Source: Eledone cirrhosa (lineage: Eukaryota). Taken from it: a DNA stretch of 64,000 nt. This document shows positions 3,001-50,025 of this stretch, piece by piece (the first letter of the stretch is position 1; each line of letters opens with the position of its first letter). The notes under the pieces are model-generated. The model was not told the origin of the DNA and searched no databases. It saw only the letters and a program-made list of their open reading frames with translations. The stretch lies in contig OZ024743.1 in NCBI GenBank assembly GCA_964016885.1, forward strand, positions 244,714,001-244,778,000. Direction: 5' to 3'. Made by a program: the position numbers and the translations under genes.

Positions 3001-3964
3001 AGCACCACTACCGCCAACACCACCAGCACCACTACCGCCAACACCACCAGCACCACTACCTCCAATACCACCAGCACCACTACCGCCAACACCACCAGCA
3101 CCACTACCGCCAATACCACCAGCACCACTACCGCCAACACCACCAGCACCACTACCTCCAACACCACCAGCACCACTACCGCCAATACCACCATCACCAC
3201 TACCGCCAACACCACCAGCACCACTACCTCCAATACCACCAGCACCACTACCGCCAACACCACCAGCACCACTACCGCCAATACCACCAGCACCACTACC
3301 ACCAGCACCACTACCGCCAACACCACCAGCACCACTACCTCCAACACCACCAGCGCCACTACCACCAGCACCACTACCGCCAATACCACCAGCACCACTA
3401 CCACCAGCACCACTACTGCCAACACCACCAGCACCACTACCGCCAATACCACCAGCACCACTACCGCCAACACCACCAGCACCACTACCTCCAACACCAC
3501 CAGCACCACTACCGCCAACACCACCAGCACCACTACCGCCAACAGCACCAGCACCACTACCTCCAATACCACCAGCACCACTACCGCCAACACCACCAGC
3601 ACCACTACCGCCAACACCACCAGCACCACTACCGCCAACACCACCAGCACCACTACCTCCAACACCACCAGCACCACTACTGCCAACACCACCAGCACCA
3701 CTACTGCCAACACCACCAGCACCACTACTGCCAACACCACCAGCACCACTACCGCCAACACCACCAGCACCACTACCTCCAACACCACCAGCACCACTAC
3801 CGCCAATACCACCAGCACCACTACCTCCAACACCACCAGCACCACTACCTCCAACACCACCAGCACCACTACCTCCAACACCACCAGCACCACTACCTCC
3901 AACACCACCAGCACCACTACCGCCAACACCACCAGCACCACTACCGCCAATACCACCAGCACCA

Positions 3965-18900: not shown

Positions 18901-19682
18901 CAATACCACCATCACCACTACCGCCAACACCACCAGCACCACTACCTCCAATACCACCAGCACCACTACCGCCAACACCACCAGCACCACTACCGCCAAT
19001 ACCACCAGCACCACTACCACCAGCACCACTACCGCCAACACCACCAGCACCACTACCTCCAACACCACCAGCGCCACTACCACCAGCACCACTACCGCCA
19101 ATACCACCAGCACCACTACCACCAGCACCACTACTGCCAACACCACCAGCACCACTACCGCCAATACCACCAGCACCACTACCGCCAACACCACCAGCAC
19201 CACTACCTCCAACACCACCAGCACCACTACCGCCAACACCACCAGCACCACTACCGCCAACACCACCAGCACCACTACCTCCAATACCACCAGCACCACT
19301 ACCGCCAACACCACCAGCACCACTACCGCCAACACCACCAGCACCACTACCGCCAACACCACCAGCACCACTACCTCCAACACCACCAGCACCACTACTG
19401 CCAACACCACCAGCACCACTACTGCCAACACCACCAGCACCACTACTGCCAACACCACCAGCACCACTACCGCCAACACCACCAGCACCACTACCTCCAA
19501 CACCACCAGCACCACTACCGCCAATACCACCAGCACCACTACCTCCAACACCACCAGCACCACTACCTCCAACACCACCAGCACCACTACCTCCAACACC
19601 ACCAGCACCACTACCTCCAACACCACCAGCACCACTACCGCCAACACCACCAGCACCACTACCGCCAATACCACCAGCACCA
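3965..19682. repeat. Second higher-order repeat family (about 7.5 kb and 6.9 kb copies plus a 1.33-kb partial copy) carrying frameshifts
   Basis: ORF-track peptides 3965..5653 and 12803..14491 are near-identical, as are 5632..11493 and 14470..19704 apart from block deletions. Bases 1-3964 match about 7175-11471. Confidence 0.9.
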
Positions 19683-22484
19683 CTACTGCCAACACCACCA
19701 GCACACCACTACCTCCAATACCACCAGCACCACTACCGCCAATACCACCAGCACCACTACTGCCAACACCACCAGCACCACTACCTCCAACACCACCAGC
19801 ACCACTACCTCCAACACCACCAGCACCACTACTGCCAACACCACCAGCACCACTACCGCCAACACCACCAGCACCACTACCGCCAACACCACCAGCACCA
19901 CTACCGCCAACACCACCAGCACCACTACCGCCAACACCATCAGCACCACTACCTCCAACACCACCAGCACCACAACCTCCAATACCACCAGCACCACTAC
20001 CACCACTACCGCCAACACCACCAGCACCACTACCTCCAACACCACCAGCACCACTACCTCCAACACCACCAGCACCACTACCGCCAACACCACCAGCACC
20101 ACTACCGCCAACACCACCAGCACCACTACCGCCAACACCACCAGCACCACTACCGCCAATACCACCAGCACCACTACCGCCAATACCACCAGCACCACCA
20201 GCACCACTACCACCAGCACCACTACCTCCAACACCACCAGCACCACTACCGCCAACACCACCAGCACCACTACCGTCAACACCACCAGCACCACTACCGC
20301 CAACACCACCAGCACCACTACCGCCAACACCACCTGCACCACTACCGCCAACACCACCAGCACCACTACCTCCAACACCACCAGCACCACTACCGCCAAC
20401 ACCACCAGCACCACTACCTCCAACACCACCAGCACCACTACCGCCAATACCACCAGCACCACTACCTCCAACACCACCAGCACCACTACCTCCAACACCA
20501 CCAGCACCACTACCTCCAACACCACCAGCACCACTACCGCCAATACCACCAGCACCACTACCTCCAACACCACCAGCACCACTACCTCCAACACCACCTG
20601 CACCACTACCGCCAACACCACCAGCACCACTACCGTCAACACCACCAGCACCACTACCTCCAACACCACCAGCACCACTACTGCCAACACCACCAGCACC
20701 ACTACCGCCAACACCACCAGCACCACTACCGCCAACACCACCAGCACCACTACCGCCAACACCACCAGCACCACTACCGCCAATACCACCAGCACCACTA
20801 CCACCAGCACCACTACCGCCAACACCAACAGCACCACTACCGCAAACACCACCAGCACCACTACCGCCAACACCACCAGCACCACTACCGCCAATACCAC
20901 CAGCACCACTACCACCAGCACCACTACCGCCAACACCACCAGCACCACAACCGCCAACACCACCAGCACCACTACCGCCAACACCACCAGCACCACTACC
21001 GCCAACACCACCAGCACCACTACCGCCAACACCACCAGCACCACTACCGCCAATACCACCAGCACCACTACCTCCAACACCACCAGCACCACTACCGCCA
21101 ATACCACCAGCACCACTACCACCAGCACCACTACCGCCAACACCACCAGCACCACTACCGCCAATACCACCAGCACCACTACCGCCAACACCACCAGCAC
21201 CACTACCTCCAACACCACCAGCACCACTACCGCCAATACCACCAGCACCACTACCGCCAACACCACCAGCACCACTACCGCCAACACCACCAGCACCACT
21301 ACCGCCAATACCACCAGCACCACTACCGCCAATACCACCAGCACCACTACCACCAGCACCACTACCGCCAACACCACCAGCACCACTACCGCCAATACCA
21401 CCAGCACCACTACCGCCAACACCACCAGCACCACTACCTCCAATACCACCAGCACCACTACCGCCAACACCACCAGCACCACTACCTCCAACACCACCAG
21501 CACCACTACCGCCAACACCACCAGCACCACTACCGCCAACACCACCAGCACCACTACCTCCAATACCACCAGCACCACTACCGCCAACACCACCAGCACC
21601 ACTACCGCCAATACCACCAGCACCACTACCGCCAACACCACCAGCACCACTACCTCCAACACCACCAGCACCACTACCGCCAATACCACCATCACCACTA
21701 CCGCCAACACCACCAGCACCACTACCTCCAATACCACCAGCACCACTACCGCCAACACCACCAGCACCACTACCGCCAATACCACCAGCACCACTACCAC
21801 CAGCACCACTACCGCCAACACCACCAGCACCACTACCTCCAACACCACCAGCGCCACTACCACCAGCACCACTACCGCCAATACCACCAACACCACTACC
21901 ACCAGCACCACTACTGCCAACACCACCAGCACCACTACCGCCAATACCACCAGCACCACTACCGCCAACACCACCAGCACCACTACCTCCAACACCACCA
22001 GCACCACTACCGCCAACACCACCAGCACCACTACCGCCAACACCACCAGCACCACTACCTCCAATACCACCAGCACCACTACCGCCAACACCACCAGCAC
22101 CACTACCGCCAACACCACCAGCACCACTACCGCCAACACCACCAGCACCACTACCTCCAACACCACCAGCACCACTACTGCCAACACCACCAGCACCACT
22201 ACTGCCAACACCACCAGCACCACTACTGCCAACACCACCAGCACCACTACCGCCAACACCACCAGCACCACTACCTCCAACACCACCAGCACCACTACCG
22301 CCAATACCACCAGCACCACTACCTCCAACACCACCAGCACCACTACCTCCAACACCACCAGCACCACTACCTCCAACACCACCAGCACCACTACCTCCAA
22401 CACCACCAGCACCACTACCGCCAACACCACCAGCACCACTACCGCCAATACCACCAGCACCACTACTGCCAACACCACCAGCAC

Positions 22485-25400
22485 ACCACTACCTCCAATA
22501 CCACCAGCACCACTACCGCCAATACCACCAGCACCACTACTGCCAACACCACCAGCACCACTACCTCCAACACCACCAGCACCACTACCTCCAACACCAC
22601 CAGCACCACTACTGCCAACACCACCAGCACCACTACCGCCAACACCACCAGCACCACTACCGCCAACACCACCAGCACCACTACCGCCAACACCACCAGC
22701 ACCACTACCGCCAACACCATCAGCACCACTACCTCCAACACCACCAGCACCACTACCTCCAATACCACCAGCACCACTACCACCACTACCGCCAACACCA
22801 CCAGCACCACTACCTCCAACACCACCAGCACCACTACCTCCAACACCACCAGCACCACTACCGCCAACACCACCAGCACCACTACCGCCAACACCACCAG
22901 CACCACTACCGCCAACACCACCAGCACCACTACCGCCAATACCACCAGCACCACTACCGCCAATACCACCAGCACCACCAGCACCACTACCACCAGCACC
23001 ACTACCTCCAACACCACCAGCACCACTACCGCCAACACCACCAGCACCACTACCGTCAACACCACCAGCACCACTACCGCCAACACCACCAGCACCACTA
23101 CCGCCAACACCACCTGCACCACTACCGCCAACACCACCAGCACCACTACCTCCAACACCACCAGCACCACTACCGCCAACACCACCAGCACCACTACCTC
23201 CAACACCACCAGCACCACTACCGCCAATACCACCAGCACCACTACCTCCAACACCACCAGCACCACTACCTCCAACACCACCAGCACCACTACCTCCAAC
23301 ACCACCAGCACCACTACCGCCAATACCACCAGCACCACTACCTCCAACACCACCAGCACCACTACCTCCAACACCACCTGCACCACTACCGCCAACACCA
23401 CCAGCACCACTACCTCCAACACCACCAGCACCACTACCTCCAACACCACCAGCACCACTACCGCCAACACCACCAGCACCACTACCGTCAACACCACCAG
23501 CACCACTACCTCCAACACCACCAGCACCACTACTGCCAACACCACCAGCACCACTACCGCCAACACCACCAGCACCACTACCTCCAACACCACCAGCACC
23601 ACTACCTCCAACACCACCAGCACCACTACCTCCAACACCACCAGCACCACTACCGCCAACACCACCAGCACCACTACCGCCAACACCACCAGCACCACTA
23701 CCTCCAACACCACCAGCACCACTACCTCCAACACCACCAGCACCACTACCGCCAACACCACCAGCACCACTACCGCCAACACCACCATCACCACTACCTC
23801 CAACACCACCAGCACCACTACCTCCAACACCACCAGCACCACTACCTCCAACACCACCAGCACCACTACCTCCAACACCACCAGCACCACTACCGCCAAC
23901 ACCACCAGCACCACTACCGTCAACACCACCAGCACCACTACCTCCAACACCACCAGCACCACTACCTCCAACACCACCAGCACTACTACCGCCAACACCA
24001 CCAGCACCACTACCGCCAACACCACCAGCACCACTACCGCCAACACCACCAGCACCACTACCTCCAACACCACCACCAGCACCACTACCTCCAACACCAC
24101 CACCAGCACCACTACCGCCAACACCACCAGCACCACTACCGCCAATACCACCAGCACCACTACCGCCAATACCACCAGCACCACCAGCACCACTACCACC
24201 AGCACCACTACCACCAGCACCACTACCGCCAACACCACCAGCACCACTACCGCCACTACCACCAGCACCACTACCGCCAACACCACCAGCACCACTACCG
24301 CCAACACCACCAGCACCACTACCTCCAACACCACCACCAGCACCACTACCGCCAACACCACCAGCACCACTACCTCCAACACCACCAGCACCACTACCGC
24401 CACTACCGCCAACACCACCAGCACCACTACCGCCAATACCACCAGCACCACTACCGCCAACACCACCAGCACCACTACCGCCACTACCACCAGCACCACT
24501 ACCGCCAACACCACCACCAGCACCACTACCGCCAACACCACCAGCACCACTACCTCCAACACCACCACCAGCACCACTACCGCCAACACCACCAGCACCA
24601 CTACCTCCAACACCACCAGCACCACTACCGCCAACACCACCACCAGCACCACTACCGCCAACACCACCAGCACCACTACCTCCAACACCACCACCAGCAA
24701 CACTACCGCCAACACCACCAGCACCACTACCGCCAACACCACCACCAGCACCACTACAGCCAACACCACCAGCACCACTACCGCCAATACCACCAGCACC
24801 ACTACCGCCAGCACCACTACCGCCAATACCACCAGCACCACTACCGCCAGCACCACTACCGCCAATACCACCAGCACCACTACCGCCAACACCACCAGCA
24901 CCACTACCGCCAATACCACCAGCACCACTACCGCCAATACCACCAGCACCACTACCGCCACTACCACCAGCACCACTACCTCCAACACCACCAGCACCAC
25001 TACCGCCAATACCATCAGCACCACTACCTCCAATACCACCAGCACCACTACCGCCAACACCACCAGCACCACTACCGCCACTACCATCAGCACCACTACC
25101 TCCAACACCACCAGCACCACTACCTCCAATACCACCAGCACCACTACCGCCAATACCACCAGCACCACTACCTCCAATACCACCAGCACCACTACCGCCA
25201 ACACCACCAGCACCACTACCTCCAATACCACCAGCACCACTACCGCCAATACCACCAGCACCAATACCGCCAATACCACCAGCACCACTACCGCCAATAC
25301 CACCAGCACCACTACCGCCAGCACCACTACCGCCAATACCACCAGCACCACTACCGCCAGCACCACTACCGCCAATACCACCAGCACCACTACCGCCAAC

Positions 25401-28400
25401 ACCACCAGCACCACTACCGCCAATACCACCAGCACCACTACCTCCAACACCACCAGCACCACTACCGCCAATACCACCAGCACCACTACCTCCAATACCA
25501 CCAGCACCACTACCTCCAATACCACTAGCACCACTACCGCCAACACCACCAGCACCACTACCGCCAACACCACCAGCACCACTACCGCCAATACCACCAG
25601 CACCACTACCGCCACTACCACCAGCATCACTACCGCCAATACCACCAGCACCACTACCTCCAACACCACTAGCACCACTACCGCCAATACCACCAGCACC
25701 ACTACCGCCAATACCACCAGCACCACTACCTCCAACACCACTAGCACCACTACCGCCAATACCACCAGCACCACTACCGCCACTACCACCAGCACCACTA
25801 CCGCCAATACCACCAGCACCACTACCTCCAACACCACTAGCACCACTACCGCCAATACCACCAGCACCACTACCGCCAACACCACCAGCACCACTACTGC
25901 CACTACCACCAGCACCACTACCTCCAACACCATTAGCACCACTACCGCCACTACCACCAGCACCACTACCGCCAATACCACCAGCACCACTACCGCCAAT
26001 ACCACCAGCACCACTACCTCCAACACCACAAGCACCACTACTGCCAACACCACCAGCACCACTACCGCCAATACCACCAGCACCACTACCGCCAATACCA
26101 CGAGCACCACTACCTCCAACACCACCAGCACCACTACTGCCAACACCACCAGCACCACTACCGCCAATACCACCAGCACCACTACCGCCAATACCACCAG
26201 CACCACTACCTCCAACACCACAAGCACCACTACTGCCAACACCACCAGCACCACTACCGCCAACACCACCAGCACCACTACCGCCAATACCACCAGCACC
26301 ACTACCACCAACACCACCAGCACCACTACCTCCAACACCACCAGCACCACTACCGCCAACACCACCAGCACCACTACCGCCAATACCACCAGCACCACTA
26401 CCTCCAACACCACCAGCACCACTACTGCCAACACCACCAGCACCACTACCGCCAACACCACCAGCACCACTACCTCCAACCCCACCAGCACCACTACCGC
26501 CAATACCACGAGCACCACTACCTCCAACACCACCAGCACCACTACTGCCAATACCACCAGCACCACTACCTCCAACACCACCAGCACCACTACCGCCAAT
26601 ACCACCAGCACCACTACCTCCAATACCACCAGCACCACTACCTCCAACACCACCAGCACCACTACCGCCAATACCACCAGCACCACTACCTCCAACACCA
26701 CCAGCACCACTACCGCCAATACCACCAGCACCACTACCTCCAATACCACCAGCACCACTACCTCCAACACCACCAGCACCACTACCTCCAATACCACCAG
26801 CACCACTACATCCAACACCACTAGCACCACTACCGCCACTACCACCAGCACCACTACCGCCAACACCACCAGCACCACTACTGCCACTACCACCAGCACC
26901 ACTACCTCCAACACCATTAGCACCACTACCGCCACTACCACCAGCACCACTACCGCCAACACCACCAGCACCACTACCTCCAACACCACAAGCACCACTA
27001 CCGCCAACACCACCAGCACCACTACCACCAGCACCACTACCTCCAACACCACAAGCACCACTACCTCCAACACCACCAGCACCACTACCGCCAACACCAC
27101 CAGCACCACTACTGCCACTACCACCAGCACCACTACCTCCAACACCATTAGCACCACTACCGCCAATACCACCAGCACCACTACCGCCAACACCACAAGC
27201 ACCACTACCGCCAACTCCACCAGCACCACTACCGCCAACACCACCAGCACCACTACCTCCAACACCACCAGCACCACTACTGCCAACACCACCAGCACCA
27301 CTACCGCCAATACCACCAGCACCACTACCGCCAACACCACCAGCACCACTACCGCCAATACCACCAGCACCACTACCGCCAACACCACCAGCACCACTAC
27401 CGCCAATACCACCAGCACCACTACCGCCAATACCACCAGCACTACTACCGCCAACACCACCAGCACCACTACCGCCAACACCACTAGCACCACTACCTCC
27501 AACACCACCAGCACCACTACCTCCAATACCACCAGCACCACTACCGCCAATACCACCAGCACCACTACCGCCAATACCACCAGCACTACTACCGCCAACA
27601 CCACCAGCACCACTACCTCCAACACCACCAGCACCACTACCGCCAATACCACCAGCACCACTACCTCCAATACCACCAGCACCACTACCGCCAACACCAC
27701 CAGCACCACTACCGCCAACACCACCAGCACCACTACCGCCAATACCACTAGCACCACTACCTCCAACACCACCAGCACCACTACCGCCAATACCACCAGC
27801 ACCACTACGGCCAATACCACCAGCACCACTACCGCCAATACCACCAGCACCACTACCTCCAATACCACCAGCACCACTACCGCCAACACCACCAGCACCA
27901 CTACCGCCAACACCACCAGCACCACTACCGCCAATACCACTAGCACCACTACCGCCAACACCACCAGCACCACTACCGCCAATACCACCAGCACCACTAC
28001 CGCCAATACCACCAGCACCACTACCGCCAACACCACCAGCACCACTACCTCCAATACCACCAGCACCACTACCGCCAATACCACCAGCACCACTACCGCC
28101 AACACCACCAGCACCACTACCTCCAATACCAACAGCACCACTACCGCCAACACCACCAGCCCCACTACCGCCAATACCACCAGCACCACTACCGCCAATA
28201 CCACCAGCACCATTACCGCCAATACCACCAGCACCACTACCGCCAACACCACCAGCACCACTACCGCCAACACCACCAGCACCACTACCGCCAATACCAC
28301 CAGCACCACTACCTCCAAGACCACCAGCACCACTACCGCCAACACCACCAGCACCACTACCGCCAATACCACCAGCACCACTACCGCCAACACCACCAGC

Positions 28401-31400
28401 ACCACTACCGCCAATACCACCAGCACCACTACCGCCAACACCACCAGCACCACTACCGCCAATACCACCAGCACCACTACCGCCAATACCACCAGCACCA
28501 CTACCGCCAACACCACTACCACCACTACCGCCAACACCACCAGCACCACTACCGCCAACACCACTACCACCACTACCGCCAACACCACCAGCACCACTAC
28601 CGCCAACACCACCAGCACCACTACCGCCAATACCACCAGCACCACTACCGCCAACACCACCAGCACCACTACCTCCAATACCACCAGCACCACTACCGCC
28701 AACACCACCAGCACCACTACCGCCAATACCACCAGCACCACTACCGCCAACACCACCAGCACCACTACCGCCAACACCACCAACACCACTACCGCCAACA
28801 CCACCAGCACCACTACCTCCAATACCACCAGCACCACTACCGCCAACACCACCAGCACCACTACCGCCAATACCACCAGCACCACTACCGCCAACACCAC
28901 CAGCACCACTACCGCCAATACCACCAGCACCACTACCGCCAACACCACTAGCACCACTACCGCCAACACCACTACCACCACTACCGCCAACACCACCAGC
29001 ACCACTACCGCCAACACCACCAGCACCACTACCGCCAATACCACCAGCACCACTACCGCCACTACCACCAGCACCACTACCGCCAACACCACCAGCACCA
29101 CTACCGCCACTACCACCAGCACCACTACCGCCAATACCACCAGCACCACTACCGCCAACACCACCAGCACCACTACCTCCAATACCACCAGCACCACTAC
29201 CTCCAACACCACCAGCACCACTACCGCCAATACCACCAGCACCACTACCGCCAACACCACCAGCACCACTACCTCCAACACCACCAGCACCACTACCGCC
29301 AATACCACCAGCACCACTACCGCCAATACCACCAGCACCACTACCGCCAACACCACCAGCACCACTACCTCCAATACCACCAGCACCACTACCTCCAACA
29401 CCACCAGCACCACTACCGCCAACACCACCAGCACCACTACCTCCAATACCACCAGCACCACTACCGCCAACACCACCAGCACCACTACCGCCAATACCAC
29501 CAGCACCACTACCGCCAACACCACCAGCACCACTACCGCCAATACCACCAGCACCACTACCGCCAACACCACTAGCACCACTACCGCCAACACCACTACC
29601 ACCACTACCGCCAACACCACCAGCACCACTACCGCCAACACCACCAGCACCACTACCGCCAATACCACCAGCACCACTACCGCCACTACCACCAGCACCA
29701 CTACCGCCAACACCACCAGCACCACTACCGCCACTACCACCAGCACCACTACCGCCAATACCACCAGCACCACTACCGCCAACACCACCAGCACCACTAC
29801 CTCCAATACCACCAGCACCACTACCTCCAACACCACCAGCACCACTACCGCCAATACCACCAGCACCACTACCGCCAACACCACCAGCACCACTACCTCC
29901 AACACCACCAGCACCACTACCGCCAATACCACCAGCACCACTACCGCCAATACCACCAGCACCACTACCGCCAACACCACCAGCACCACTACCTCCAATA
30001 CCACCAGCACCACTACCTCCAACACCACCAGCACCACTACCACCACTACCACCAGCACCACTACCGCCAATACCACCAGCACCACTACCGCCAACACCAC
30101 CAGCACCACTACCTCCAACACCACCAGCACCACTACCGCCAATACCACCAGCACCACTACCGCCAATACCACCAGCACCACTACCGCCAACACCACCAGC
30201 ACCACTACCGCCAATACCACCAGCACCACTACCGCCAACACCACCAGCACCACTACCTCCAACACCACTAGCACCACTACCGCCAACACCACTACCACCA
30301 CTACCGCCAACACCACCAGCACCACTACCGCCAACACCACCAGCACCACTACCGCCAATACCACCAGCACCACTACCGCCAACACCACCAACACCACTAC
30401 CTCCAACACCACCAGCACCACTACTGCCAACACCACCAGCACCACTACCGCCAACACCACCAGCACCACTACCTCCAACACCACCAGCACCACTACCTCC
30501 AACACCACCAGCACCACTACCTCCAACACCACCAGCACCACTACCTCCAATACCACCAGCACCACTACCGCCAACACCACCAGCACCACTACCTCCAACA
30601 CCACCAGCACCACTACCTCCAACACCACCAGCACCACTACCGCCAATACCACCAGCACCACTACCGCCAACACCACCAGCACCACTACCGCCAACACCAC
30701 CAGCACCACTACCGCCAATACCACCAGCACCACTACCTCCAATACCACCAGCACCACTACCGCCAACACCACCAGCACCACTACCTCCAACACCACCAGC
30801 ACCACTACCTCCAATACCACCAGCACCACTACCGCCAATACCACTATCACCACTACCTCCAACACCACCAGCACCACTACCGCCAACACCACCAGCACCA
30901 CTACCGCCAATACCACCAGCACCACTACCGCCAACACCACCAGCACCACTACCGCCAACACCACCAGCACCACTACCTCCAATACCACCAGCACCACTAC
31001 CGCCAATACCACCAGCACCACTACCGCCAACACCACCAGCACCACTACCTCCAATACCACCAGCACCACTACCTCCAACACCACCAGCACCACTACCGCC
31101 AATACCACCAGCAACACTACCGCCAACACCACCAGCACCACTACCTCCAACACCACCAGCACCACTACCGCCAATACCACCAGCACCACTACCGCCAATA
31201 CCACCAGCACCACTACCGCCAACACCACCAGCACCACTACCTCCAATACCACCAGCACCACTACCTCCAACACCACCAGCACCACTACTTCCAACACCAC
31301 CAGCACCACTACCGCCAATACCACCAGCACCACTACCGCCAACACCACCAGCACCACTACCTCCAACACCACCAGCACCACTACCGCCAATACCACCAGC

Positions 31401-34400
31401 ACCACTACCGCCAATACCACCAGCACCACTACCGCCAACACCACCAGCACCACTACCGCCAATACCACCAGCACCACTACCGCCAACACCACCAGCACCA
31501 CTACCTCCAACACCACTAGCACCACTACCGCCAACACCACTACCACCACTACCGCCAACACCACCAGCACCACTACCGCCAACACCACCAGCACCACTAC
31601 CGCCAATACCACCAGCACCACTACCGCCAACACCACCAGCACCACTACCTCCAACACCACCAGCACCACTACTGCCAACACCACCAGCACCACTACCGCC
31701 AACACCACCAGCACCACTACCTCCAACACCACCAGCACCACTACCTCCAACACCACCAGCACCACTACCTCCAATACCACCAGCACCACTACCGCCAACA
31801 CCACCAGCACCACTACCTCCAACACCACCAGCACCACTACCTCCAACACCACCAGCACCACTACCGCCAATACCACCAGCACCACTACCGCCAACACCAC
31901 CAGCACCACTACCGCCAACACCACCAGCACCACTACCGCCAATACCACCAGCACCACTACCTCCAATACCACCAGCACCACTACCGCCAACACCACCAGC
32001 ACCACTACCTCCAACACCACCAGCACCACTACCTCCAATACCACCAGCACCACTACCGCCAATACCACTATCAGCACTACCTCCAACACCACCAGCACCA
32101 TTACCGCCAACACCACCAGCACCACTACCTCCAATACCACCAGCACCACTACCGCCAACACCACCAGCACCACTACCTCCAACACCACCAGCACCACTAC
32201 CTCCAACACCACCAGCACCACTACCTCCAATACCACCAGCACCACTACCGCCAACACCACCAGCACCACTACCGCCAATACCACTATCACCACTACCTCC
32301 AACACCACCAGCACCACTACCGCCAACACCACCAGCACCACTACCTCCAACACCACCAGCACCACTACCGCCAACACCACCAGCACCACTACCGCCAATA
32401 CCACCAGCACCACTACCGCCAACACCACCAGCACCACTACCTCCAATACCACCAGCACCACTACCGCCAATACCACCAGCACCAATACCGCCAATACCAC
32501 CAGCACCACTACCGCCAATACCACCAGCACCACTACCGCCAGCACCACTACCGCCAATACAACCAGCACCACTACCGCCAGCACCACTACCGCCAATACC
32601 ACCAGCACCACTACCGCCAACACCACCAGCACCACTACCGCCAATACCACCAGCACCACTACCTCCAACACCACCAGCACCACTACCGCCAATACCACCA
32701 GCACCACTACCTCCAATACCACCAGCACCACTACCTCCAATACCACTAGCACCACTACCGCCAACACCACCAGCACCACTACCGCCAACACCACCAGCAC
32801 CACTACCGCCAATACCACCAGCACCACTACCGCCACTACCACCAGCACCACTACCGCCAATACCACCAGCACCACTACCTCCAACACCACTAGCACCACT
32901 ACCGCCAATACCACCAGCACCACTACCGCCAATACCACCAGCACCACTACCTCCAACACCACTAGCACCACTACCGCCAATACCACCAGCACCACTACCG
33001 CCACTACCACCAGCACCACTACCGCCAATACCACCAGCACCACTACCTCCAACACCACTAGCACCACTACCGCCAATACCACCAGCACCACTACCGCCAA
33101 CACCACCAGCACCACTACTGCCACTACCACCAGCACCACTACCTCCAACACCATTAGCACCACTACCGCCACTACCACCAGCACCACTACCGCCAATACC
33201 ACCAGCACCACTACCGCCAATACCACCAGCACTACTACCTCCAACACCACAAGCACCACTACTGCCAACACCACCAGCACCACTACCGCCAATACCACCA
33301 GCACCACTACCGCCAATACCACGAGCACCACTACCTCCAACACCACCAGCACCACTACTGCCAACACCACCAGCACCACTACCGCCAATACCACCAGCAC
33401 CACTACCGCCAATACCACCAGCACCACTACCTCCAACACCACAAGCACCACTACTGCCAACACCACCAGCACCACTACCGCCAACACCACCAGCACCACT
33501 ACCGCCAATACCACCAGCACCACTACCTCCAACACCACCAGCACCACTACCTCCAACACCACCAGCACCACTACCGCCAACACCACCAGCACCACTACCG
33601 CCAATACCACCAGCACCACTACCTCCAACACCACCAGCACCACTACTGCCAACACCACCAGCACCACTACCGCCAACACCACCAGCACCACTACCTCCAA
33701 CCCCACCAGCACCACTACCGCCAATACCACGAGCACCACTACCTCCAACACCACCAGCACCACTACTGCCAATACCACCAGCACCACTACCTCCAACACC
33801 ACCAGCACCACTACCGCCAATACCACCAGCACCACTACCTCCAATACCACCAGCACCACTACCTCCAACACCACCAGCACCACTACCGCCAATACCACCA
33901 GCACCACTACCTCCAACACCACCAGCACCACTACCGCCAATACCACCAGCACCACTACCTCCAATACCACCAGCACCACTACCTCCAACACCACCAGCAC
34001 CACTACCTCCAATACCACCAGCACCACTACATCCAACACCACTAGCACCACTACCGCCACTACCACCAGCACCACTACCGCCAACACCACCAGCACCACT
34101 ACTGCCACTACCACCAGCACCACTACCTCCAACACCATTAGCACCACTACCGCCACTACCACCAGCACCACTACCGCCAACACCACCAGCACCACTACCT
34201 CCAACACCACAAGCACCACTACCGCCAACACCACCAGCACCACTACCACCAGCACCACTACCTCCAACACCACAAGCACCACTACCTCCAACACCACCAG
34301 CACCACTACCGCCAACACCACCAGCACCACTACTGCCACTACCACCAGCACCACTACCTCCAACACCATTAGCACCACTACCGCCAATACCACCAGCACC

Positions 34401-37400
34401 ACTACCGCCAACACCACAAGCACCACTACCGCCAACTCCACCAGCACCACTACCGCCAACACCACCAGCACCACTACCTCCAACACCACCAGCACCACTA
34501 CTGCCAACACCACCAGCACCACTACCGCCAATACCACCAGCACCACTACCGCCAACACCACCAGCACCACTACCGCCAATACCACCAGCACCACTACCGC
34601 CAACACCACCAGCACCACTACCGCCAATACCACCAGCACCACTACCGCCAATACCACCAGCACTACTACCGCCAACACCACCAGCACCATTACCGCCAAC
34701 ACCACTAGCACCACTACCTCCAACACCACCAGCACCACTACCTCCAATACCACCAGCACCACTACCGCCAATACCACCAGCACCACTACCGCCAATACCA
34801 CCAGCACTACTACCGCCAACACCACCAGCACCACTACCTCCAACACCACCAGCACCACTACCGCCAATACCACCAGCACCACTACCTCCAATACCACCAG
34901 CACCACTACCGCCAACACCACCAGCACCACTACCGCCAACACCACCAGCACCACTACCGCCAATACCACTAGCACCACTACCTCCAACACCACCAGCACC
35001 ACTACCGCCAATACCACCAGCACCACTACGGCCAATACCACCAGCACCACTACCGCCAATACCACCAGCACCACTACCTCCAATACCACCAGCACCACTA
35101 CCGCCAACACCACCAGCACCACTACCGCCAACACCACCAGCACCACTACCGCCAATACCACTAGCACCACTACCGCCAACACCACCAGCACCACTACCGC
35201 CAATACCACCAGCACCACTACCGCCAATACCACCAGCACCACTACCGCCAACACCACCAGCACCACTACCTCCAATACCACCAGCACCACTACCGCCAAT
35301 ACCACCAGCACCACTACCGCCAACACCACCAGCACCACTACCTCCAATACCAACAGCACCACTACCGCCAACACCACCAGCCCCACTACCGCCAATACCA
35401 CCAGCACCACTACCGCCAATACCACCAGCACCATTACCGCCAATACCACCAGCACCACTACCGCCAACACCACCAGCACCACTACCGCCAACACCACCAG
35501 CACCACTACCGCCAATACCACCAGCACCACTACCTCCAAGACCACCAGCACCACTACCGCCAACACCACCAGCACCACTACCGCCAATACCACCAGCACC
35601 ACTACCGCCAACACCACCAGCACCACTACCGCCAATACCACCAGCACCACTACCGCCAACACCACCAGCACCACTACCGCCAATACCACCAGCACCACTA
35701 CCGCCAATACCACCAGCACCACTACCGCCAACACCACTACCACCACTACCGCCAACACCACCAGCACCACTACCGCCAACACCACTACCACCACTACCGC
35801 CAACACCACCAGCACCACTACCGCCAACACCACCAGCACCACTACCGCCAATACCACCAGCACCACTACCGCCAACACCACCAGCACCACTACCTCCAAT
35901 ACCACCAGCACCACTACCGCCAACACCACCAGCACCACTACCGCCAATACCACCAGCACCACTACCGCCAACACCACCAGCACCACTACCGCCAACACCA
36001 CCAACACCACTACCGCCAACACCACCAGCACCACTACCTCCAATACCACCAGCACCACTACCGCCAACACCACCAGCACCACTACCGCCAATACCACCAG
36101 CACCACTACCGCCAACACCACCAGCACCACTACCGCCAATACCACCAGCACCACTACCGCCAACACCACTAGCACCACTACCGCCAACACCACTACCACC
36201 ACTACCGCCAACACCACCAGCACCACTACCGCCAACACCACCAGTACCACTACCGCCAATACCACCAGCACCACTACCGCCACTACCACCAGCACCACTA
36301 CCGCCAACACCACCAGCACCACTACCGCCACTACCACCAGCACCACTACCGCCAATACCACCAGCACCACTACCGCCAACACCACTAGCACCACTACCTC
36401 CAATACCACCAGCACCACTACCTCCAACACCACCAGCACCACTACCGCCAATACCACCAGCACCACTACCGCCAACACCACCAGCACCACTACCTCCAAC
36501 ACCACCAGCACCACTACCGCCAATACCACCAGCACCACTACCGCCAATACCACCAGCACCACTACCGCCAACACCACCAGCACCACTACCTCCAATACCA
36601 CCAGCACCACTACCTCCAACACCACCAGCACCACTACCGCCAACACCACCAGCACCACTACCTCCAATACCACCAGCACCACTACCGCCAACACCACCAG
36701 CACCACTACCGCCAATACCACCAGCACCACTACCGCCAACACCACCAGCACCACTACCGCCAATACCACCAGCACCACTACCGCCAACACCACTAGCACC
36801 ACTACCGCCAACACCACTACCACCACTACCGCCAACACCACCAGCACCACTACCGCCAACACCACCAGCACCACTACCGCCAATACCACCAGCACCACTA
36901 CCGCCACTACCACCAGCACCACTACCGCCAACACCACCAGCACCACTACCGCCACTACCACCAGCACCACTACCGCCAATACCACCAGCACCACTACCGC
37001 CAACACCACCAGCACCACTACCTCCAATACCACCAGCACCACTACCTCCAACACCACCAGCACCACTACCGCCAATACCACCAGCACCACTACCGCCAAC
37101 ACCACCAGCACCACTACCTCCAACACCACCAGCACCACTACCGCCAATACCACCAGCACCACTACCGCCAATACCACCAGCACCACTACCGCCAACACCA
37201 CCAGCACCACTACCTCCAATACCACCAGCACCACTACCTCCAACACCACCAGCACCACTACCACCACTACCACCAGCACCACTACCGCCAATACCACCAG
37301 CACCACTACCGCCAACACCACCAGCACCACTACCTCCAACACCACCAGCACCACTACCGCCAATACCACCAGCACCACTACCGCCAATACCACCAGCACC

Positions 37401-40400
37401 ACTACCGCCAACACCACCAGCACCACTACCGCCAATACCACCAGCACCACTACCGCCAACACCACCAGCACCACTACCTCCAACACCACTAGCACCACTA
37501 CCGCCAACACCACTACCACCACTACCGCCAACACCACCAGCACCACTACCGCCAACACCACCAGCACCACTACCGCCAATACCACCAGCACCACTACCGC
37601 CAACACCACCAGCACCACTACCTCCAACACCACCAGCACCACTACTGCCAACACCACCAGCACCACTACCGCCAACACCACCAGCACCACTACCTCCAAC
37701 ACCACCAGCACCACTACCTCCAACACCACCAGCACCACTACCTCCAACACCACCAGCACCACTACCTTCAATACCACCAGCACCACTACCGCCAACACCA
37801 CCAGCACCACTACCTCCAACACCACCAGCACCACTACCTCCAACACCACCAGCACCACTACCGCCAATACCACCAGCACCACTACCGCCAACACCACCAG
37901 CACCACTACCGCCAACACCACCAGCACCACTACCGCCAATACCACCAGCACCACTACCTCCAATACCACCAGCACCACTACCGCCAACACCACCAGCACC
38001 ACTACCTCCAACACCACCAGCACCACTACCTCCAATACCACCAGCACCACTACCGCCAATACCACTATCACCACTACCTCCAACATCACCAGCACCACTA
38101 CCGCCAACACCACCAGCACCACTACCGCCAATACCACCAGCACCACTACCGCCAACACCACCAGCACCACTACCGCCAACACCACCAGCACCACTACCTC
38201 CAATACCACCAGCACCACTACCGCCAATACCACCAGCACCACTACCGCCAACACCACCAGCACCACTACCTCCAATACCACCAGCACCACTACCTCCAAC
38301 ACCACCAGCACCACTACCGCCAATACCACCAGCAACACTACCGCCAACACCACCAGCACCACTACCTCCAACACCACCAGCACCACTACCGCCAATACCA
38401 CCAGCACCACTACCGCCAATACCACCAGCACCACTACCGCCAACACCACCAGCACCACTACCTCCAATACCACCAGCACCACTACCTCCAACACCACCAG
38501 CACCACTACTTCCAACACCACCAGCACCACTACCGCCAATACCACCAGCACCACTACCGCCAACACCACCAGCACCACTACCTCCAACACCACCAGCACC
38601 ACTACCGCCAATACCACCAGCACCACTACCGCCAATACCACCAGCACCACTACCGCCAACACCACCAGCACCACTACCGCCAATACCACCAGCACCACTA
38701 CCGCCAACACCACCAGCACCACTACCTCCAACACCACTAGCACCACTACCGCCAACACCACTACCACCACTACCGCCAACACCACCAGCACCACTACCGC
38801 CAACACCACCAGCACCACTACCGCCAATACCACCAGCACCACTACCGCCAACACCACCAGCACCACTACCTCCAACACCACCAGCACCACTACTGCCAAC
38901 ACCACCAGCACCACTACCGCCAACACCACCAGCACCACTACCTCCAACACCACCAGCACCACTACCTCCAACACCACCAGCACCACTACCTCCAATACCA
39001 CCAGCACCACTACCGCCAACACCACCAGCACCACTACCTCCAACACCACCAGCACCACTACCTCCAACACCACCAGCACCACTACCGCCAATACCACCAG
39101 CACCACTACCGCCAACACCACCAGCACCACTACCGCCAACACCACCAGCACCACTACCGCCAATACCACCAGCACCACTACCTCCAATACCACCAGCACC
39201 ACTACCGCCAACACCACCAGCACCACTACCTCCAACACCACCAGCACCACTACCTCCAATACCACCAGCACCACTACCGCCAATACCACTATCACCACTA
39301 CCTCCAACACCACCAGCACCACTACCGCCAACACCACCAGCACCACTACCTCCAATACCACCAGCACCACTACCGCCAACACCACCAGCACCACTACCTC
39401 CAACACCACCAGCACCACTACCTCCAACACCACCAGCACCACTACCTCCAATACCACCAGCACCACTACCGCCAACACCACCAGCACCACTACCGCCAAT
39501 ACCACTATCACCACTACCTCCAACACCACCAGCACCACTACCGCCAACACCACCAGCACCACTACCTCCAACACCACCAGCACCACTACCGCCAACACCA
39601 CCAGCACCACTACCGCCAATACCACCAGCACCACTACCGCCAATACCACCAGCACCACTACCGCCAATACCACCAGCACCACTACCGCCAATACCACCAG
39701 CACCACTACCTCCAATACCACCAGCACCACTACCGCCAATACCACCAGCACCACTACCGCCAATACCACCAGCACCACTACCTCCAATACCACCAGCACC
39801 ACTACCGCCAACACCACCAGCACCACTACCGCCAATACCACCAGCACCACTACCGCCAACACCACCAGCACCACTACCGCCAATACCACCAGCACCACTA
39901 CCGCCAACACCACCAGCACCACTACCTCCAATACCAGCAGCACCACTACCGCCAATACCACCAGCACCACTAACGCCAATACCACCAGCACCACTACCGC
40001 CAATACCACCAGCACCACTACCGCCAATACCACCAGCACCACTACCGCCAACACCACCAGCACCACTACCGCCAATACCACCAGCACCACTACCGCCAAT
40101 ACCACCAGCACCACTACCGCCAACACCACCAGCACCACTACCTCCAATACCACCAGCACCACTACCGCCAATACCACCAGCACCACTAACGCCAATACCA
40201 CCAGCACCACTAACGCCAATACCACCAGCACCACTACCTCCAATACCACCAGCACCACTAACGCCAATACCACCAGCACCACTACCTCCAACACCACCAG
40301 CACCACTACCGCCAACACCACCAGCACCACTAACGCCAATACCACCAGCACCACTAACGCCAATACCACCAGCACCACTACCTCCAATACCACCAGCACC

Positions 40401-42776
40401 ACTACCGCCAATACCACCAGCACCACTACCGCCAACACCACCAGCACCACTACCGCCAACACCACCCGCACCACTACCTCCAATACCACCAGCACCACTA
40501 CCTCCAATACCACCAGCACCACTACCTCCAACACCACCAGCACCACTACCGCCAACACCACCAGCACCACTACCGCCAATACCACCAGCACCACTACCTC
40601 CAATACCACCAGCACCACTACCGCCAATACCACCAGCACCACTACCGCCAACACCACCAGCACCACTACCTCCAATACCACCAGCACCACTACCTCCAAT
40701 ACCACCAGCACCACTACCGCCAATACCACCAGCACCACTACCTCCAATACCACCAGCACCACTACCTCCAATACCACCAGCACCACTACCGCCAATACCA
40801 CCAGCACCACTACCGCCAACACCACCAGCACCACTACCTCCACTACCACCAGCACCACTACCTCCACTACCACCAGCACCACTACCACCAACACCACCAG
40901 CACTACTACCTCCAATACCACCAGCACCACTACCGCCAATACCACCAGCACCACTACCTCCAATACCACCAGCACCACTACCTCCAATACCACCAGCACC
41001 ACTACCTCCAATACCACCAGCACCACTACCGCCAATACCACCAGCACCACTACCGCCAACACTACCAGCACCACTACCTCCAACACCACCAGCACCACTA
41101 CCGCCAACACCACCAGCACCACTACCTCCAACCCCACCAGCACCACTACCTCCAACACCACCAGCACCACTACCGCCAACACCACCAGCACCACTACCGC
41201 CAATACCACCAGCACCACTACCTCCAATACCACCAGCACCACTACCGCCAACACTACCAGCACCACTACCTCCAACACCACCAGCACCACTACCGCCAAC
41301 ACCACCAGCACCACTACCGCCAACACCACCAGCACCACTACCTCCAATACCACCAGCACCACTACCTCCAATACCACCAGCACCACTACCGCCAACACCA
41401 CCAGCACCACTACCTCCAACCCCACCAGCACCACTACCGCCAACACCACCAGCACCACTACCGCCAACACCACCAGCACCACTACCTCCAATACCACCAG
41501 CACCACTACCGCCAACACCACCAGCACCACTACCGCCAATACCACTACCGCCAACACCACCAGCACCACTACCGCCAACACCACCAGCACCACTACCGCC
41601 AATACCACCAGCACCACTACCACCAACACCACCAGCACCACTACCACCAACACCACCAGCACCACTACCACCAACACCACCAGCACCACTACCTCCACCA
41701 CCACCAGCACCACTACCGCCAACACCACCAGCACCACTACCGCCAACACCACCAGCACCACTACCTCCAACACCACCAGCACCACTACCGCCAACACCAC
41801 CAGCACCACTACCGCCAATACCACCAGCACCACTACCACCAACACCACCAGCACCACTACCTCCAACACCACCAGCACCACTACCGCCAACACCACCAGC
41901 ACCACTACCGCCAATACCACCAGCACCACTACCGCCAACACCACCAGCACCACTGCCGCCAATACCACCAGCACCACTACCGCCAACACCACCAGTACCA
42001 CTACCACCAGCACCACTACCGCCAACACCACCAGCACCACTACCGCCAACACCACCAGCACCACTACCGCCACTACCACCAGCACCACTACCGCCAATAC
42101 CACCAGCACCACTACCACCAACACCACCAGCACCACTACCGCCACTACCACCAGCACCACTACCTCCAACACCACCAGCACCACTACCGCCAACACCACC
42201 AGCACCACTACCGCCAACACCACCAGCACCACTACCGCCAATACCACCAGCACCACTACCGCCACTACCACCAGCACCACTACCGCCACTACCACCAGCA
42301 CCACTACCGCCAACACCACCAGCACCACTACCGCCAATACCACCAGCACCACTAACGCCAACACCACCAGCACCACTAACGCCAACCCCATCAGCACCAC
42401 TACCGCCAACACCACCAGCACCACTACCGCCAACACCACCAGCACCACTATCGCCAACACCACCATCACCACTACCGCCACTACCACCAGCACCACTAAC
42501 GCCAACACCACCAGCACCACTAACGCCAACCCCATCAGCACCACTACCGCCAACACCACCAGCACCACTAACACCAACACCACCAGCACCACTACCTCCA
42601 ACACCACCAGCACCACTACCGCCAATACCACCAGCACCACTAACGCCACCACCACCAGCACCACTACCTCCAACACCACCAGCACCACTATCGCCACTAC
42701 CACCAGCACCACTACCGCCAACACCACCAGCACCACTACCGCCACCACCACCGGTATTAATTATCTTCCTCTCCAC
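22485..42776 (-). CDS. Putative glycine-rich, silk-fibroin-like repeat reading frame (GSGAGG[V/I]G)n, about 6,760 codons; coding status unproven
   Basis: ORF track 19683..42776: Gly frame uninterrupted to the frameshift at about 22483, with all indels in this span multiples of 3. No ATG, signal peptide or unique terminal domain; the first residues derive from a retrotransposon. Confidence 0.3.
25150..39620. repeat. 7,221-bp tandem higher-order duplication inside the array
   Basis: Rare markers recur at a constant 7,221 offset: CCAATACCGCC about 25261/32482, ACTACGGCC about 27805/35026, TCCAAGACC about 28316/35537, CCACTATCAC 32281/39502. Boundaries approximate. Confidence 0.9.
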
Positions 42777-43600
42777 TGCATTGCGGGCAGCGGACCCCAG
42801 GTTTGTCGTCGAAGCGACAAAGCTTCAGTCAGAGAACGAGTTGCAGCACATCGCATCTCAAATTAAAGATTAGCTTCCATCGAAAGGGATGAGAGTTCAT
42901 CCGCCAGGGTGCTCACCATCACCATGGTCTAGGTCAGCAGGTTTCAATTGTAACGGGCAACCGACTGCGTCGAGGTTTCTCCTGGTGAAGTTGTTCAGAG
43001 CAGCATGGCAACAAGATATTTGGTGCAGACTGAAGTCATCAACAGCTGCTCCACAACAGTATTTGCGTGGCTTACATGCGGAGGCCGCGGTGTTGTGCTT
43101 CTCCAATGCAGGTACACTCATGATCAATATAGTACCGGTTGATGAAGATGGCACCGAATTGAGCCAAGCGTCACTGTTTGGTTGCGGGGTGGAGCGTAGA
43201 TAGGCGTGACGGTGTTGGTCCAAGGAAGACACGATTTGTCGTACTATTTGCGTTGGAAATCGATATACTGGGGGACGACAAGGCCTTCGTCGTGACTGCG
43301 TACGCAGTATTGGCATAAATGGCCAGTGTAGGTGAAGTGAAAAGCTGATGGGAAGGGGTGGTCGAAGGAAGCGATGTTGCCTCTGAACTTCGAGGTCAAG
43401 GAGGGGATCAAACCCTCCCCCGTTATCGAGATCTCAAGTATAAATGACGCAAAACTGAAGAGTTCGTTATGGTCCTGCAGGCTATTGGTATCGAGTGCTT
43501 GGTCGATGGTCGGCGCTAGCCCATCGCCCACCAAAGTGCAGGCAGCCCTGGGATACTGATGATAATTCTCCGTGACTATCTGACCTGGGAGATCCCCACC
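42753..43600 (-). mobile_element. Decayed CRE-clade-like non-LTR retrotransposon, C-terminal zinc knuckle and restriction-like endonuclease region
   Basis: Minus translation across frameshifts: [66 protein letters not shown]. This matches the CRE-type pattern AWL..P / C.CG..H..C / HN / RPDG / WD / AE.RK..KY. Right boundary uncertain (may reach about 43870). Confidence 0.75.
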
Positions 43601-44214
43601 AAGACCTCGACCGTGCTACGCGAGGTTAGGATCTCATTCTGTTCTTATTCTGTGTCCACTTGTATCTCAGGATCAACCTGTGGTGTCGAGAGGGTTAAGT
43701 ATCGCGGGCAGTGCCACCCGTGCAGAGATTGCGACGCTCGCCAGGAAATACGACGAAAGAAAGATGGAAGAAATTGTTACAGTTGGAACACATCCTTTTT
43801 TTCTTCCGCCTATTTCGCTTGGCGCACGAACGACACTGCTTGACTTCCTGCAGCTTGAGGAATATAGCCGAGGGTGGGTTAAGGGAGCAAGTGGGACTGT
43901 TTCTGTTGTTGTTGTTTTATAGTTGTTGTTACAACTGTTGTTGTTAATACTGCTATTTTTTCTTTTTTTTTACTGTTTAACAAAAGATATAAATGAATTT
44001 ATTCAAAAGCAAAAAACAAACCTTATTTAGTAAGAAAAAAAAAGAAAGAAAGAAGAAAAAGAACGGGAAAAGGAGGGGATGGCAAGATTTCTGGTGTCGC
44101 AGAAGAGAGGAGAGGGTGAGGGGGAGGGTGATTGGGTTTTGGGCCTAGGGCAAGAGAGCAGAAGTGTTGCGCCCCGCGGACAAGACGGCAAAAGCATTCC
44201 CCCCGACAATGGTC

Positions 44215-44500
44215 AGTATTATTGCTGTTCTCGTTGTATTTGTTGTTGCTGCCGCTGTCGTCGTCGTCGTTGTTGTTGTTGTTAATGTTGGTGGTGGTGG
44301 TGGTGTTTTCATTGTTGCTGTAGGCGTCATTGTTGTTGTTGCTATTCTAGCTGTTACTCTAGTCATTACTGTTGTTGTTTTTATTTTTGTGTTGGTGTCA
44401 TTGTTGTAGTTGTTACTCTTGTTATTGATTTGGTTATTATTTGTTGTTGTAGATGTTGCTGTTGTTATTGTTTTTTTTTGTTTCTAGTTGTAGTGGTGTC
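44215..44500. repeat. Degenerate (GTT/GGT/GTC)n low-complexity tract
   Basis: Runs of gttgttgtt, ggtggtggt and gtcgtcgtc. Confidence 0.9.
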
Positions 44501-49710: not shown

Positions 49711-49799
49711 TAATAAAAACAAAACATACTATTAAAGAGAACAGAAAAAAAAAGAAAACAGAAAATGCATAGGAGAAAAAGAAAGATCAAACGTCAAAA

Positions 49800-50025
49800 G
49801 CGTAACCAAGGAAAATGGCCAGAGACACCAGCCTGATTATGCTCCCTCCTCAAGCGGTCCGCCGTATTCCCGACTTTACGGAGAGCGATGCAAAGAGGAA
49901 GCGGCCGACCAGGCCCCGGTATTTGACTATCGTCTACTCCTCATTGCGGGCAGCGGAGCCCTGGTTTGTGGCCGAAGCGACAAGGCTGGAGGCGGAGAAC
50001 GAGTCGCTGCATATCGCAGAAAATG
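49800..50025 (-). mobile_element. Second CRE-like endonuclease fragment, paralogous to 42753-42860 and extending past the array junction
   Basis: CATTGCGGGCAGCGGAGCCCTGGTTTGTGGCCGAAGCGACAAG..GAGAACGAGT aligns with 42779-42842. Minus translation SDSFSASSLVASATNQGSAARNEE*TIVKYRGLVGRFLFASLSV. Confidence 0.8.

What the first reader, a model, noticed from the sequence alone, without database searches (positions are those of the whole stretch)
42700..42900. The array begins inside a retrotransposon endonuclease domain; the 'N-terminus' is transposon-derived
Seen: the minus strand reads ..GCCCGCAATGCAGTGGAGAGGAAGATAATTAATACCGG|TGGTGGCGGTAGT, while the paralogue near 49.9 kb reads ..GCCCGCAATGAGGAGTAGACGATAGTCAAATACCGG|GGCCTGGTCGGC. 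So MERKIINT is the CRE-type AE.RK..KY motif, and the array replaces the element's continuation right after TACCGG. The units nearest the junction look the most heterogeneous. Inference: either a giant satellite grew from a GGT seed inside a dead CRE element, or a transposon fragment was exonised. A possible acceptor is TGCAG|TG near 42776 on minus; a weak donor is CCG|GTATT near 42753 on plus.
Basis: partly seen in the sequence, partly recalled or inferred. Interest (0 to 1): 0.7.

Follow-up and report, generated by a model that had tools for sequence, protein, structure and literature searches.

The report
Giant satellite at a broken retrotransposon
A 48-kb run of a 24-base repeat starts exactly where a dead retrotransposon copy breaks off; the element does not resume on the far side, so this is likely an ordinary non-coding satellite that grew at a deletion scar, not a new protein or an expansion inside an intact element.

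Summary
The junction is real. The left flank (43835-42751, minus) is a decayed, RT-deleted copy of an R2-group (CRE-like) retrotransposon. Its endonuclease region aligns to a profile of 25 other copies (E 2e-131) up to the first base of the array. The array is 48.25 kb, 1,961 parsed units, single-locus, and ends 5.5 kb left of the window. The far flank instead holds short copies of the break point: an exact 10-bp repeat of the element's last bases, a 16-of-21 match to the bases before them, and a (GGT)n tract whose start matches unit 1 at 18 of 19. The best reading is a deletion repaired with small locally templated patches, one of which seeded the array, later amplified in kilobase blocks. 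Exonisation is unsupported: eight frameshift units, no frame open end to end, no synonymous bias, and the proposed splice words are shared by many copies of the element. No RNA data were available. A second GGT-derived array of 21 kb lies in an aquaporin intron nearby, so such arrays are ordinary here.

The parts
43758..43835 (-). N-terminal Cys/His (PHD-like) finger remnant of the element
   Evidence: 57% identity over 28 aa to the N-terminus of P0002, pairwise E 2e-8; relatives P0014 and P0017 carry PF00628
43364..43558 (-). Element residues ~95-162; the RT domain that should follow has no match here (internal deletion, inferred)
   Evidence: tblastn with P0002, E 3e-5; the next match is residue 732
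42751..43233 (-). Decayed zinc-knuckle and restriction-like endonuclease region, cut off after the K-Y-R codons; last ~330 bp missing
   Evidence: nhmmer E 2e-131, tblastn E 3e-28 with stops, 3'-end comparison with 29 copies
42751..42760 (-). Last 10 bases of the element (TTAATACCGG); the final GG is shared with array unit 1. An exact second copy lies outside the window, 60 bp beyond the array's far end (L031:4430-4439, same orientation)
   Evidence: only 2 occurrences in 344 kb; 0 of 11,818 control windows reach 9 bases
1..42752 (.). In-window part of a 48.25-kb array of a 24-bp unit of eight GGT-like triplets; 1,961 parsed units of 107 types, 8 frameshift units, higher-order duplications at 1.3-18.5-kb spacing. 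It continues 5.5 kb left of the window to L031:4500 (G000:C4:244708500). Beyond it, outside the window: a 60-bp flank (L031:4440-4499; 17 bases resembling the element end, then 43 of unknown origin; acceptor-like on plus), the second 10-mer, 44 unique bases, and a (GGT)n tract (about L031:4280-4388) that is the likely seed donor
   Evidence: all 496 genome-wide matches of a 38-mer lie in this array
42273..42752 (-). First 20 units of the array, the most heterogeneous; unit 1 with the junction CGG matches the start of the far (GGT)n tract at 18 of 19 bases
49789..50017 (-).
44035..44217 (-). Separate 3'-end fragment of the family with an A-rich tail, lying in an (AAC)n tract

Best explanation
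This is a 48-kb single-locus satellite, likely non-coding, that begins where a decayed R2-group (CRE-like) retrotransposon copy is cut off and that likely grew from a small patch of neighbouring GGT microsatellite copied into a deletion scar. Shown: the element anatomy, the loss of its 3' ~330 bp, the array's extent and block duplications, and three short likenesses between the far flank and the break point. Inferred step 1: a break in the dead element deleted its 3' end. Inferred step 2: microhomology-primed repair (polymerase-theta-like) or an equivalent slippage event laid down a patchwork: ~16 bases from the GGT tract (primed on CGG), ~20 bases of the element's end, 43 unassigned bases and the element's last 10 bases, and then joined the far flank. 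Inferred step 3: the GGT patch became a 24-bp unit and was amplified by slippage and unequal exchange. The long open frames follow from the unit, in which no single substitution makes a stop in three of the six frames.
For: Far end is not element continuation. 10-mer repeat: 0 of 11,818 control windows reach 9 bases. Bases just beyond the array match the element end at 16 of 21; 3 of 5,000 random windows score as high. The far GGT tract is the only place within 1 mismatch of the first 19 junction/array bases in ~296 kb. Eight frameshift units of two kinds recur at block-like spacings. All three plus frames have stops end to end (16, 51 and 4), and the minus frame closes at 19683. Synonymous types are 13 of 38 observed against 20 of 72 possible in the Thr frame and 14 of 38 against 24 of 72 in the Val frame. 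A 21-kb GGT/GTT-derived array lies in an intron of the nearby aquaporin gene. Patchwork templated insertions with pieces under 25 bp and end-of-array decay are both described (passages of PMC12426944 and PMC5139131).
Against: The three likeness tests were chosen after looking. The 19-base match is low in complexity: 24 other places match within 2 mismatches. One patch is exact and another only ~75% alike, which fits a single event poorly. The 43-base piece maps to nothing above background (22-61% of controls do as well), and its hairpin is not unusual (z -0.6). The far junction was not checked with reads. No ancestral or empty allele was seen. The far edge has a strong acceptor-like signal (12 of 30,063 AGs).
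Confidence: 0.58

Rival explanations
1. Plain deletion: an older satellite and the element were joined at 2-3 bases of microhomology, and the likenesses at the far end are chance.
For: The junction has only GG/CGG in common. 5 of 29 other copies end between -75 and +46 bases of this site, and one (L028) runs into a triplet-derived repeat. Abrupt satellite junctions next to TE pieces are reported in molluscs (PMC5139131, passages).
Against: It needs an exact 10-mer and a 16-of-21 match to adjacent element sequence, in the right order and strand, within 70 bases of the far end. Unit 1 is a whole unit, and that end is the most diverged.
Confidence: 0.17
2. Insertion with a 10-bp target-site duplication: a truncated retroposed piece (60-bp head, triplet-repeat tail on plus) landed at an already broken element end, and its tail expanded into the array.
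For: Exact 10-bp direct repeats enclose head plus array. Triplet tracts beside dispersed repeats occur here.
Against: The head is found only once (29-mer with up to 3 mismatches; 121-bp DNA search, which skips common words). The element's break would have to coincide with the edge of the duplication. The head's array-proximal bases resemble the element end itself.
Confidence: 0.13
3. The array is a giant spliced exon on plus (Thr- or Pro-rich, mucin-like, or non-coding), with splice signals taken from antisense element sequence.
For: The far edge has a branch-point word, 13 of 16 pyrimidines and TAG (12 of 30,063 flank AGs; thresholds set on the observed site). AG to first GT spans 48,252 bases, a multiple of 3. 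A better-looking donor (CAG|GTTTGT) lies at 42801. The Thr frame carries an N-T-T sequon in most units.
Against: No frame is open across the array, and no clear synonymous bias. The pyrimidine tract is the reverse complement of the element-like purine run, and the AG belongs to the unit. No mucin-type Pfam domain reached its cut-off in 295 flank ORFs and candidate exons. The nearest gene found, an aquaporin, is complete without it, with its ATG 27 kb downstream. No protein hit at E<=1e-20 among 7,971 candidates (weak evidence).
Confidence: 0.07
4. One reading: the satellite expanded inside an otherwise continuous element.
For: The array starts at the last aligned base of the element, and element-like bases occur at the far end.
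Against: Those bases copy sequence before the break, not after it. The continuation scores at background. The element offers no GGT seed.
Confidence: 0.03
5. Assembly artefact at one or both edges.
For: Long low-complexity array; copy number and the far junction were not checked with reads.
Against: Short-read contigs of 2 runs of one sample span the near junction. No N lies in the array. Duplicated blocks differ by 6-16% of units.
Confidence: 0.02

Closest known systems
R2-group non-LTR retrotransposons with a C-terminal restriction-like endonuclease (clades CRE, NeSL, R2, Hero, R4; PMC3636483, passages); CRE types reported in cephalopods (PMC10294476, passage)
   Same: Full-length relatives have one ORF with RT, then CCHC knuckle, RH, E, RPD and D motifs; P0002's best solved-structure hits are R2 proteins (E 6e-7).
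   Different: This copy has no RT, has stops and frameshifts, and lacks its 3' end. The spacer lengths miss the quoted trypanosomatid CRE/SLACS pattern by about one residue each (0 of 23 strict, 20 of 23 loosened).
Minisatellites and satellites born from microsatellites or between short flanking repeats (Haber and Louis model as summarised in PMC6947457, passages)
   Same: The unit is built of GGT-like triplets, short direct repeats lie near both ends, terminal units are more diverged, and there are block duplications.
   Different: The unit is not derived from element sequence, the 10-bp repeat is not part of the unit and lies 60 bp outside the array, and the array is very long for a single-locus 24-bp unit.
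Polymerase-theta templated insertions at deletion junctions (PMC12426944, passages)
   Same: A deletion with several pieces under 25 bp that copy both flanks, primed on a few bases, mixed with unassignable bases.
   Different: An old germline event inferred from one assembly; one piece would since have grown about 2,000-fold; no enzyme evidence.
Mucin PTS tandem-repeat exons (recalled; no call)
   Same: In one frame the unit reads TTSTTTAN, and acceptor- and donor-like words lie at the edges.
   Different: Frameshifts, no open frame, and no flanking mucin-domain exons found.

Membership tests
R2-group non-LTR retrotransposon (RLE type) | RT followed by CCHC knuckle and PD-(D/E)XK-type endonuclease in one ORF | tested here: met
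   Met for the family: 21 of 23 relatives carry PF00078, and 20 of 23 fit the loosened motif. The window copy aligns to P0002 residues 732-894 but has lost the RT.
CRE clade | Published CRE/SLACS REL spacing C[X1-3]C[X7-8]H[X3-4]C[X9-10]RHD/N...R/KPD[X12-14]D/E (quoted in PMC12857005) | tested here: not met
   0 of 23 relatives fit strictly; the typical spacing is 1/9/3/8, RH[T/A/S/V], 19/9/15. The pattern comes from SLACS/CRE1/CRE2 only and the miss is small, so it does not exclude animal CRE-like elements.
CRE clade | Placement with CRE references in an RT phylogeny | not testable with these tools
   No named CRE reference sequences were on hand; the CRE-like label rests on recalled motifs and on the passage in PMC10294476.
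CRE clade | Target-site specificity and target-site duplication | not tested
   Element ends were not surveyed; one 3' fragment lies in an (AAC)n tract.
Satellite / long minisatellite | Long head-to-tail array with homogenised units and higher-order duplication | tested here: met
   1,961 units, 4 types make up 1,413 of them; duplicated blocks of up to 216 units.
Satellite / long minisatellite | Non-coding | tested here: inconclusive
   Sequence argues against coding; transcription and splicing could not be tested.
TE-derived satellite | Unit homologous to element sequence | tested here: not met
   The profile of the element's 3' region stops at the array edge and has no hit inside it.
Polymerase-theta templated insertion | Inserted pieces map to the flanks of a deletion | tested here: inconclusive
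   Three pieces map, 43 bases do not; tests were post hoc; no ancestral allele.
Mucin PTS exon | One open reading frame across the repeat exon | tested here: not met
   16, 51 and 4 stops in the three plus frames.
Mucin PTS exon | Flanking exons with VWD, SEA, EGF or chitin-binding domains | tested here: not met
   None at cut-off in 295 ORFs and candidate exons; short or distant exons could be missed.
Exonised transposon | Spliced transcripts using the sites | not testable with these tools
   No RNA run was available to lay.

The most novel reading that the evidence does not exclude
One repair event at a dead retrotransposon created both the seed of a 48-kb array and, by copying the element's purine-rich end to the far side, a working antisense splice acceptor, so that the whole array is spliced as a giant exon (mucin-like or non-coding, perhaps upstream of the aquaporin gene). 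The weaker form, without splicing (probability about 0.45, interest about 0.4), is a readable birth record of a giant satellite from a break-repair patch.
Probability: 0.06. Interest if true: 0.7.

Novelty: new member of a known kind. Interest (0 to 1): 0.24.

Why it matters
Mostly it corrects a false gene call: the 6,800-10,000-residue repeat frames and their 'N-terminus' come from a triplet satellite beside a dead retrotransposon. If the patchwork reading holds, the locus records at base level how a single-locus satellite starts, which is rarely visible and could be tested across related species and across the genome's other arrays.

Tried and rejected
Element resumption at the far end: not found. 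An inversion placing the missing 3' end on the plus strand: no such profile hit in 344 kb. An inverted repeat around the far 10-mer: 21 of 44, reached by 7.6% of random sites, dropped. The 43-base piece as a mosaic of local sequence: background level. A Helitron-like hairpin end: fold z -0.6, single copy. Pfam on the window's element frames: no family hit. PDB search with the RLE region: nothing meaningful. Thr-frame protein search: none at E<=1e-20. Expression: no RNA holder listed, which is no evidence either way. The two RAD-seq runs laid had no reads over 42810-43109, so nothing is known about other individuals. Earlier scan notes: nothing returned. Literature searches (listings only) showed no paper on this array; of 79 papers I saw 10 rows, none containing 'templated insertion'. 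Supplements were not consulted.

Full report
Setting. The window is G000:C4:244714001-244778000 in a 3.0-Gb genome. The closest named protein hits are from Octopus and Argonauta, so it is likely an octopod. Negative coordinates are bases left of the window (genome place = 244714000 + number).

Observation. Both junction sequences are as quoted, apart from one extra TGG on the array side. They align at 79% over 106 bp. A DNA search with 42753-43450 gave 43 matches among 40 scored candidates of 749, mostly 66-79% identical. A profile of 25 other copies (4 of the 29 fetched loci left out as truncated or off-register) aligns 43233-42750 at E 2e-131 and ends at the array. Most other copies continue with a K-Y-R-G-L-T-D-R-F-L-F-like stretch. 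In this copy one A is lost before TACCGG, so the frame reads AVERKIINT and runs into the Gly-rich frame; there is no ATG after the last upstream stop. Short-read contigs from two runs of one sample span the junction. This sample may be the assembly's source, so it checks the assembly but is not a second individual.

The element. A 263-aa stretch of a better-kept copy (L023) finds 23 proteins at E<=1e-10 among 6,981 candidates, 21 of them with an RT domain. Against one of these (P0002) the window copy has a finger at 43835-43758, residues 95-162 at 43558-43364 and residues 732-894 at 43226-42765, with nothing for the RT between. It is an internally deleted, decayed copy. The family has the R2-group layout described in PMC3636483 (passages), and R2 proteins are its best solved relatives. 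The SLACS/CRE pattern quoted in PMC12857005 (passages) fits 0 of 23 strictly and 20 of 23 when loosened. I therefore call it CRE-like; that label is partly recalled and not tested by phylogeny. PMC10294476 (passage) reports CRE types in cephalopods.

The array. It fills 1-42752 and ends at -5500: 48.25 kb, 1,961 parsed units of 107 types. All 496 genome-wide exact matches of a 38-mer lie in it, so that sequence is single-locus. Blocks of 40-216 units recur at spacings of 1.3-18.5 kb. The first 20 units hold 10 rare types, the last 20 hold 4, and the maximum elsewhere is 6. Decay of terminal units is a known edge effect (PMC5139131, passages).

The far end. It is not the element's continuation. 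Scored against 20 real continuations (12-48, leave-one-out; 10 loci dropped as truncated or off-register), the bases after the array score 3.9 and those after the far 10-mer 7.6, against 5.9 +/- 4.6 for 1,500 random windows. A downstream-only profile over 344 kb finds only separate copies, all on minus; the nearest, at -8400 to -10770, has its own endonuclease region. Breaks at this site are not routine: of 29 other loci, 20 reach the 3' end (one in pieces), 5 end between -75 and +46, and 1 within 10 bases.

What the far end does hold. In order along the minus strand: bases matching the element just before the break at 16 of 21 (3 of 5,000 random windows score as high); 43 unassigned bases; an exact copy of the element's last 10 bases (2 occurrences in 344 kb; 0 of 11,818 control windows reach 9); 44 unique bases ending in CGG; and a (GGT)n tract whose start matches the junction and unit 1 at 18 of 19. 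That is the only match within 1 mismatch in ~296 kb, though 24 places match within 2. These tests were chosen after inspection. The flank is found once in the genome.

Mechanism. A single repair event explains why the element ends exactly at the duplicated 10-mer: the deletion removed the 3' end, and short pieces copied from both flanks filled the joint. PMC12426944 (passages) describes such patchworks of pieces under 25 bp with unassignable bases. A slippage duplication between short repeats (Haber and Louis, as summarised in PMC6947457, passages) gives a similar product. The GGT piece would then have formed the 24-bp unit and expanded. The anatomy is shown; the order of events and the enzyme are inferred. 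The unequal divergence of the patches and the unassigned 43 bases count against the reading.

Coding or exon? Five +2 and three -1 units recur along the array. No plus frame is open end to end, and the minus frame from the junction closes at 19683. Single substitutions cannot create stops in the Gly, Thr or Pro frames, so long ORFs are expected, and no frame shows a clear synonymous excess. The far edge on plus looks like a real acceptor (12 of 30,063 AGs) and the span to the first GT is a multiple of 3, which keeps a small chance for an exon; the pyrimidine tract is also what the copied element end gives on the other strand. Pfam scans of 149 and 146 flank ORFs or candidate exons, drawn from 521 ORFs of 70 aa or more and 91 candidate exons, gave transposon domains, two weak sub-threshold hits and one aquaporin exon. 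That gene is complete in three exons from position 70227. Its second intron holds a 21-kb array of a 68-bp GGT/GTT-derived unit that also ends in a GGT-rich tract, so giant triplet-derived arrays occur in non-coding DNA here.

Verdict. This is a known kind of object, a satellite beside a transposon remnant, with a junction scar that can be read unusually well. Interest is low to modest.

Noticed in passing
G000:C4:244784227-244911832 (L082:6227 onward; window-equivalent 70227-197832), plus: Intact-looking three-exon aquaporin gene, 83% identical in exon 1 to a protein named aquaporin-5-like of Argonauta hians, with introns of 95 and 32 kb.
   Followed up: partly
window-equivalent 171241-192663 (L092-L094): 21-kb array of a 68-bp GGT/GTT-derived unit inside aquaporin intron 2, followed by a GGT-rich tract.
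   Followed up: partly
L031:1-1600 and L032:9230-10000 (window-equivalent -8400 to -10770), minus: Longer copy of the same retrotransposon family with finger, part of the RT, endonuclease and A-rich tail; frameshifted, with an internal deletion.
   Followed up: partly
L034-L033 (window-equivalent -30519 to -22121): Tandem array of a 466-bp unit, 100% identical by TRF, in two pieces; a 200-N gap lies about 1-2 kb to its right. Very recent or an assembly effect.
   Followed up: no
window 61515-62343 and 63172-64000: 829-bp inverted repeat at 98.9% identity, cut by the window end, around a frame at 62686-63042 that looks GIY-YIG-like by eye (no Pfam hit).
   Followed up: no
window 57700-59560, minus: Remnant with a weak GIY-YIG hit (E 6e-4) and an RT-like frame by eye; likely Penelope-like (label recalled).
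   Followed up: no
window 44035-44217 and flanks: A 3' fragment of the element sits within an (AAC)n tract, and the studied copy begins just after such a tract; a preference for these microsatellites is possible but was not tested.
   Followed up: no
profile hits in the 344-kb region around the window: All six significant copies of this family in the region lie on the minus strand.
   Followed up: no
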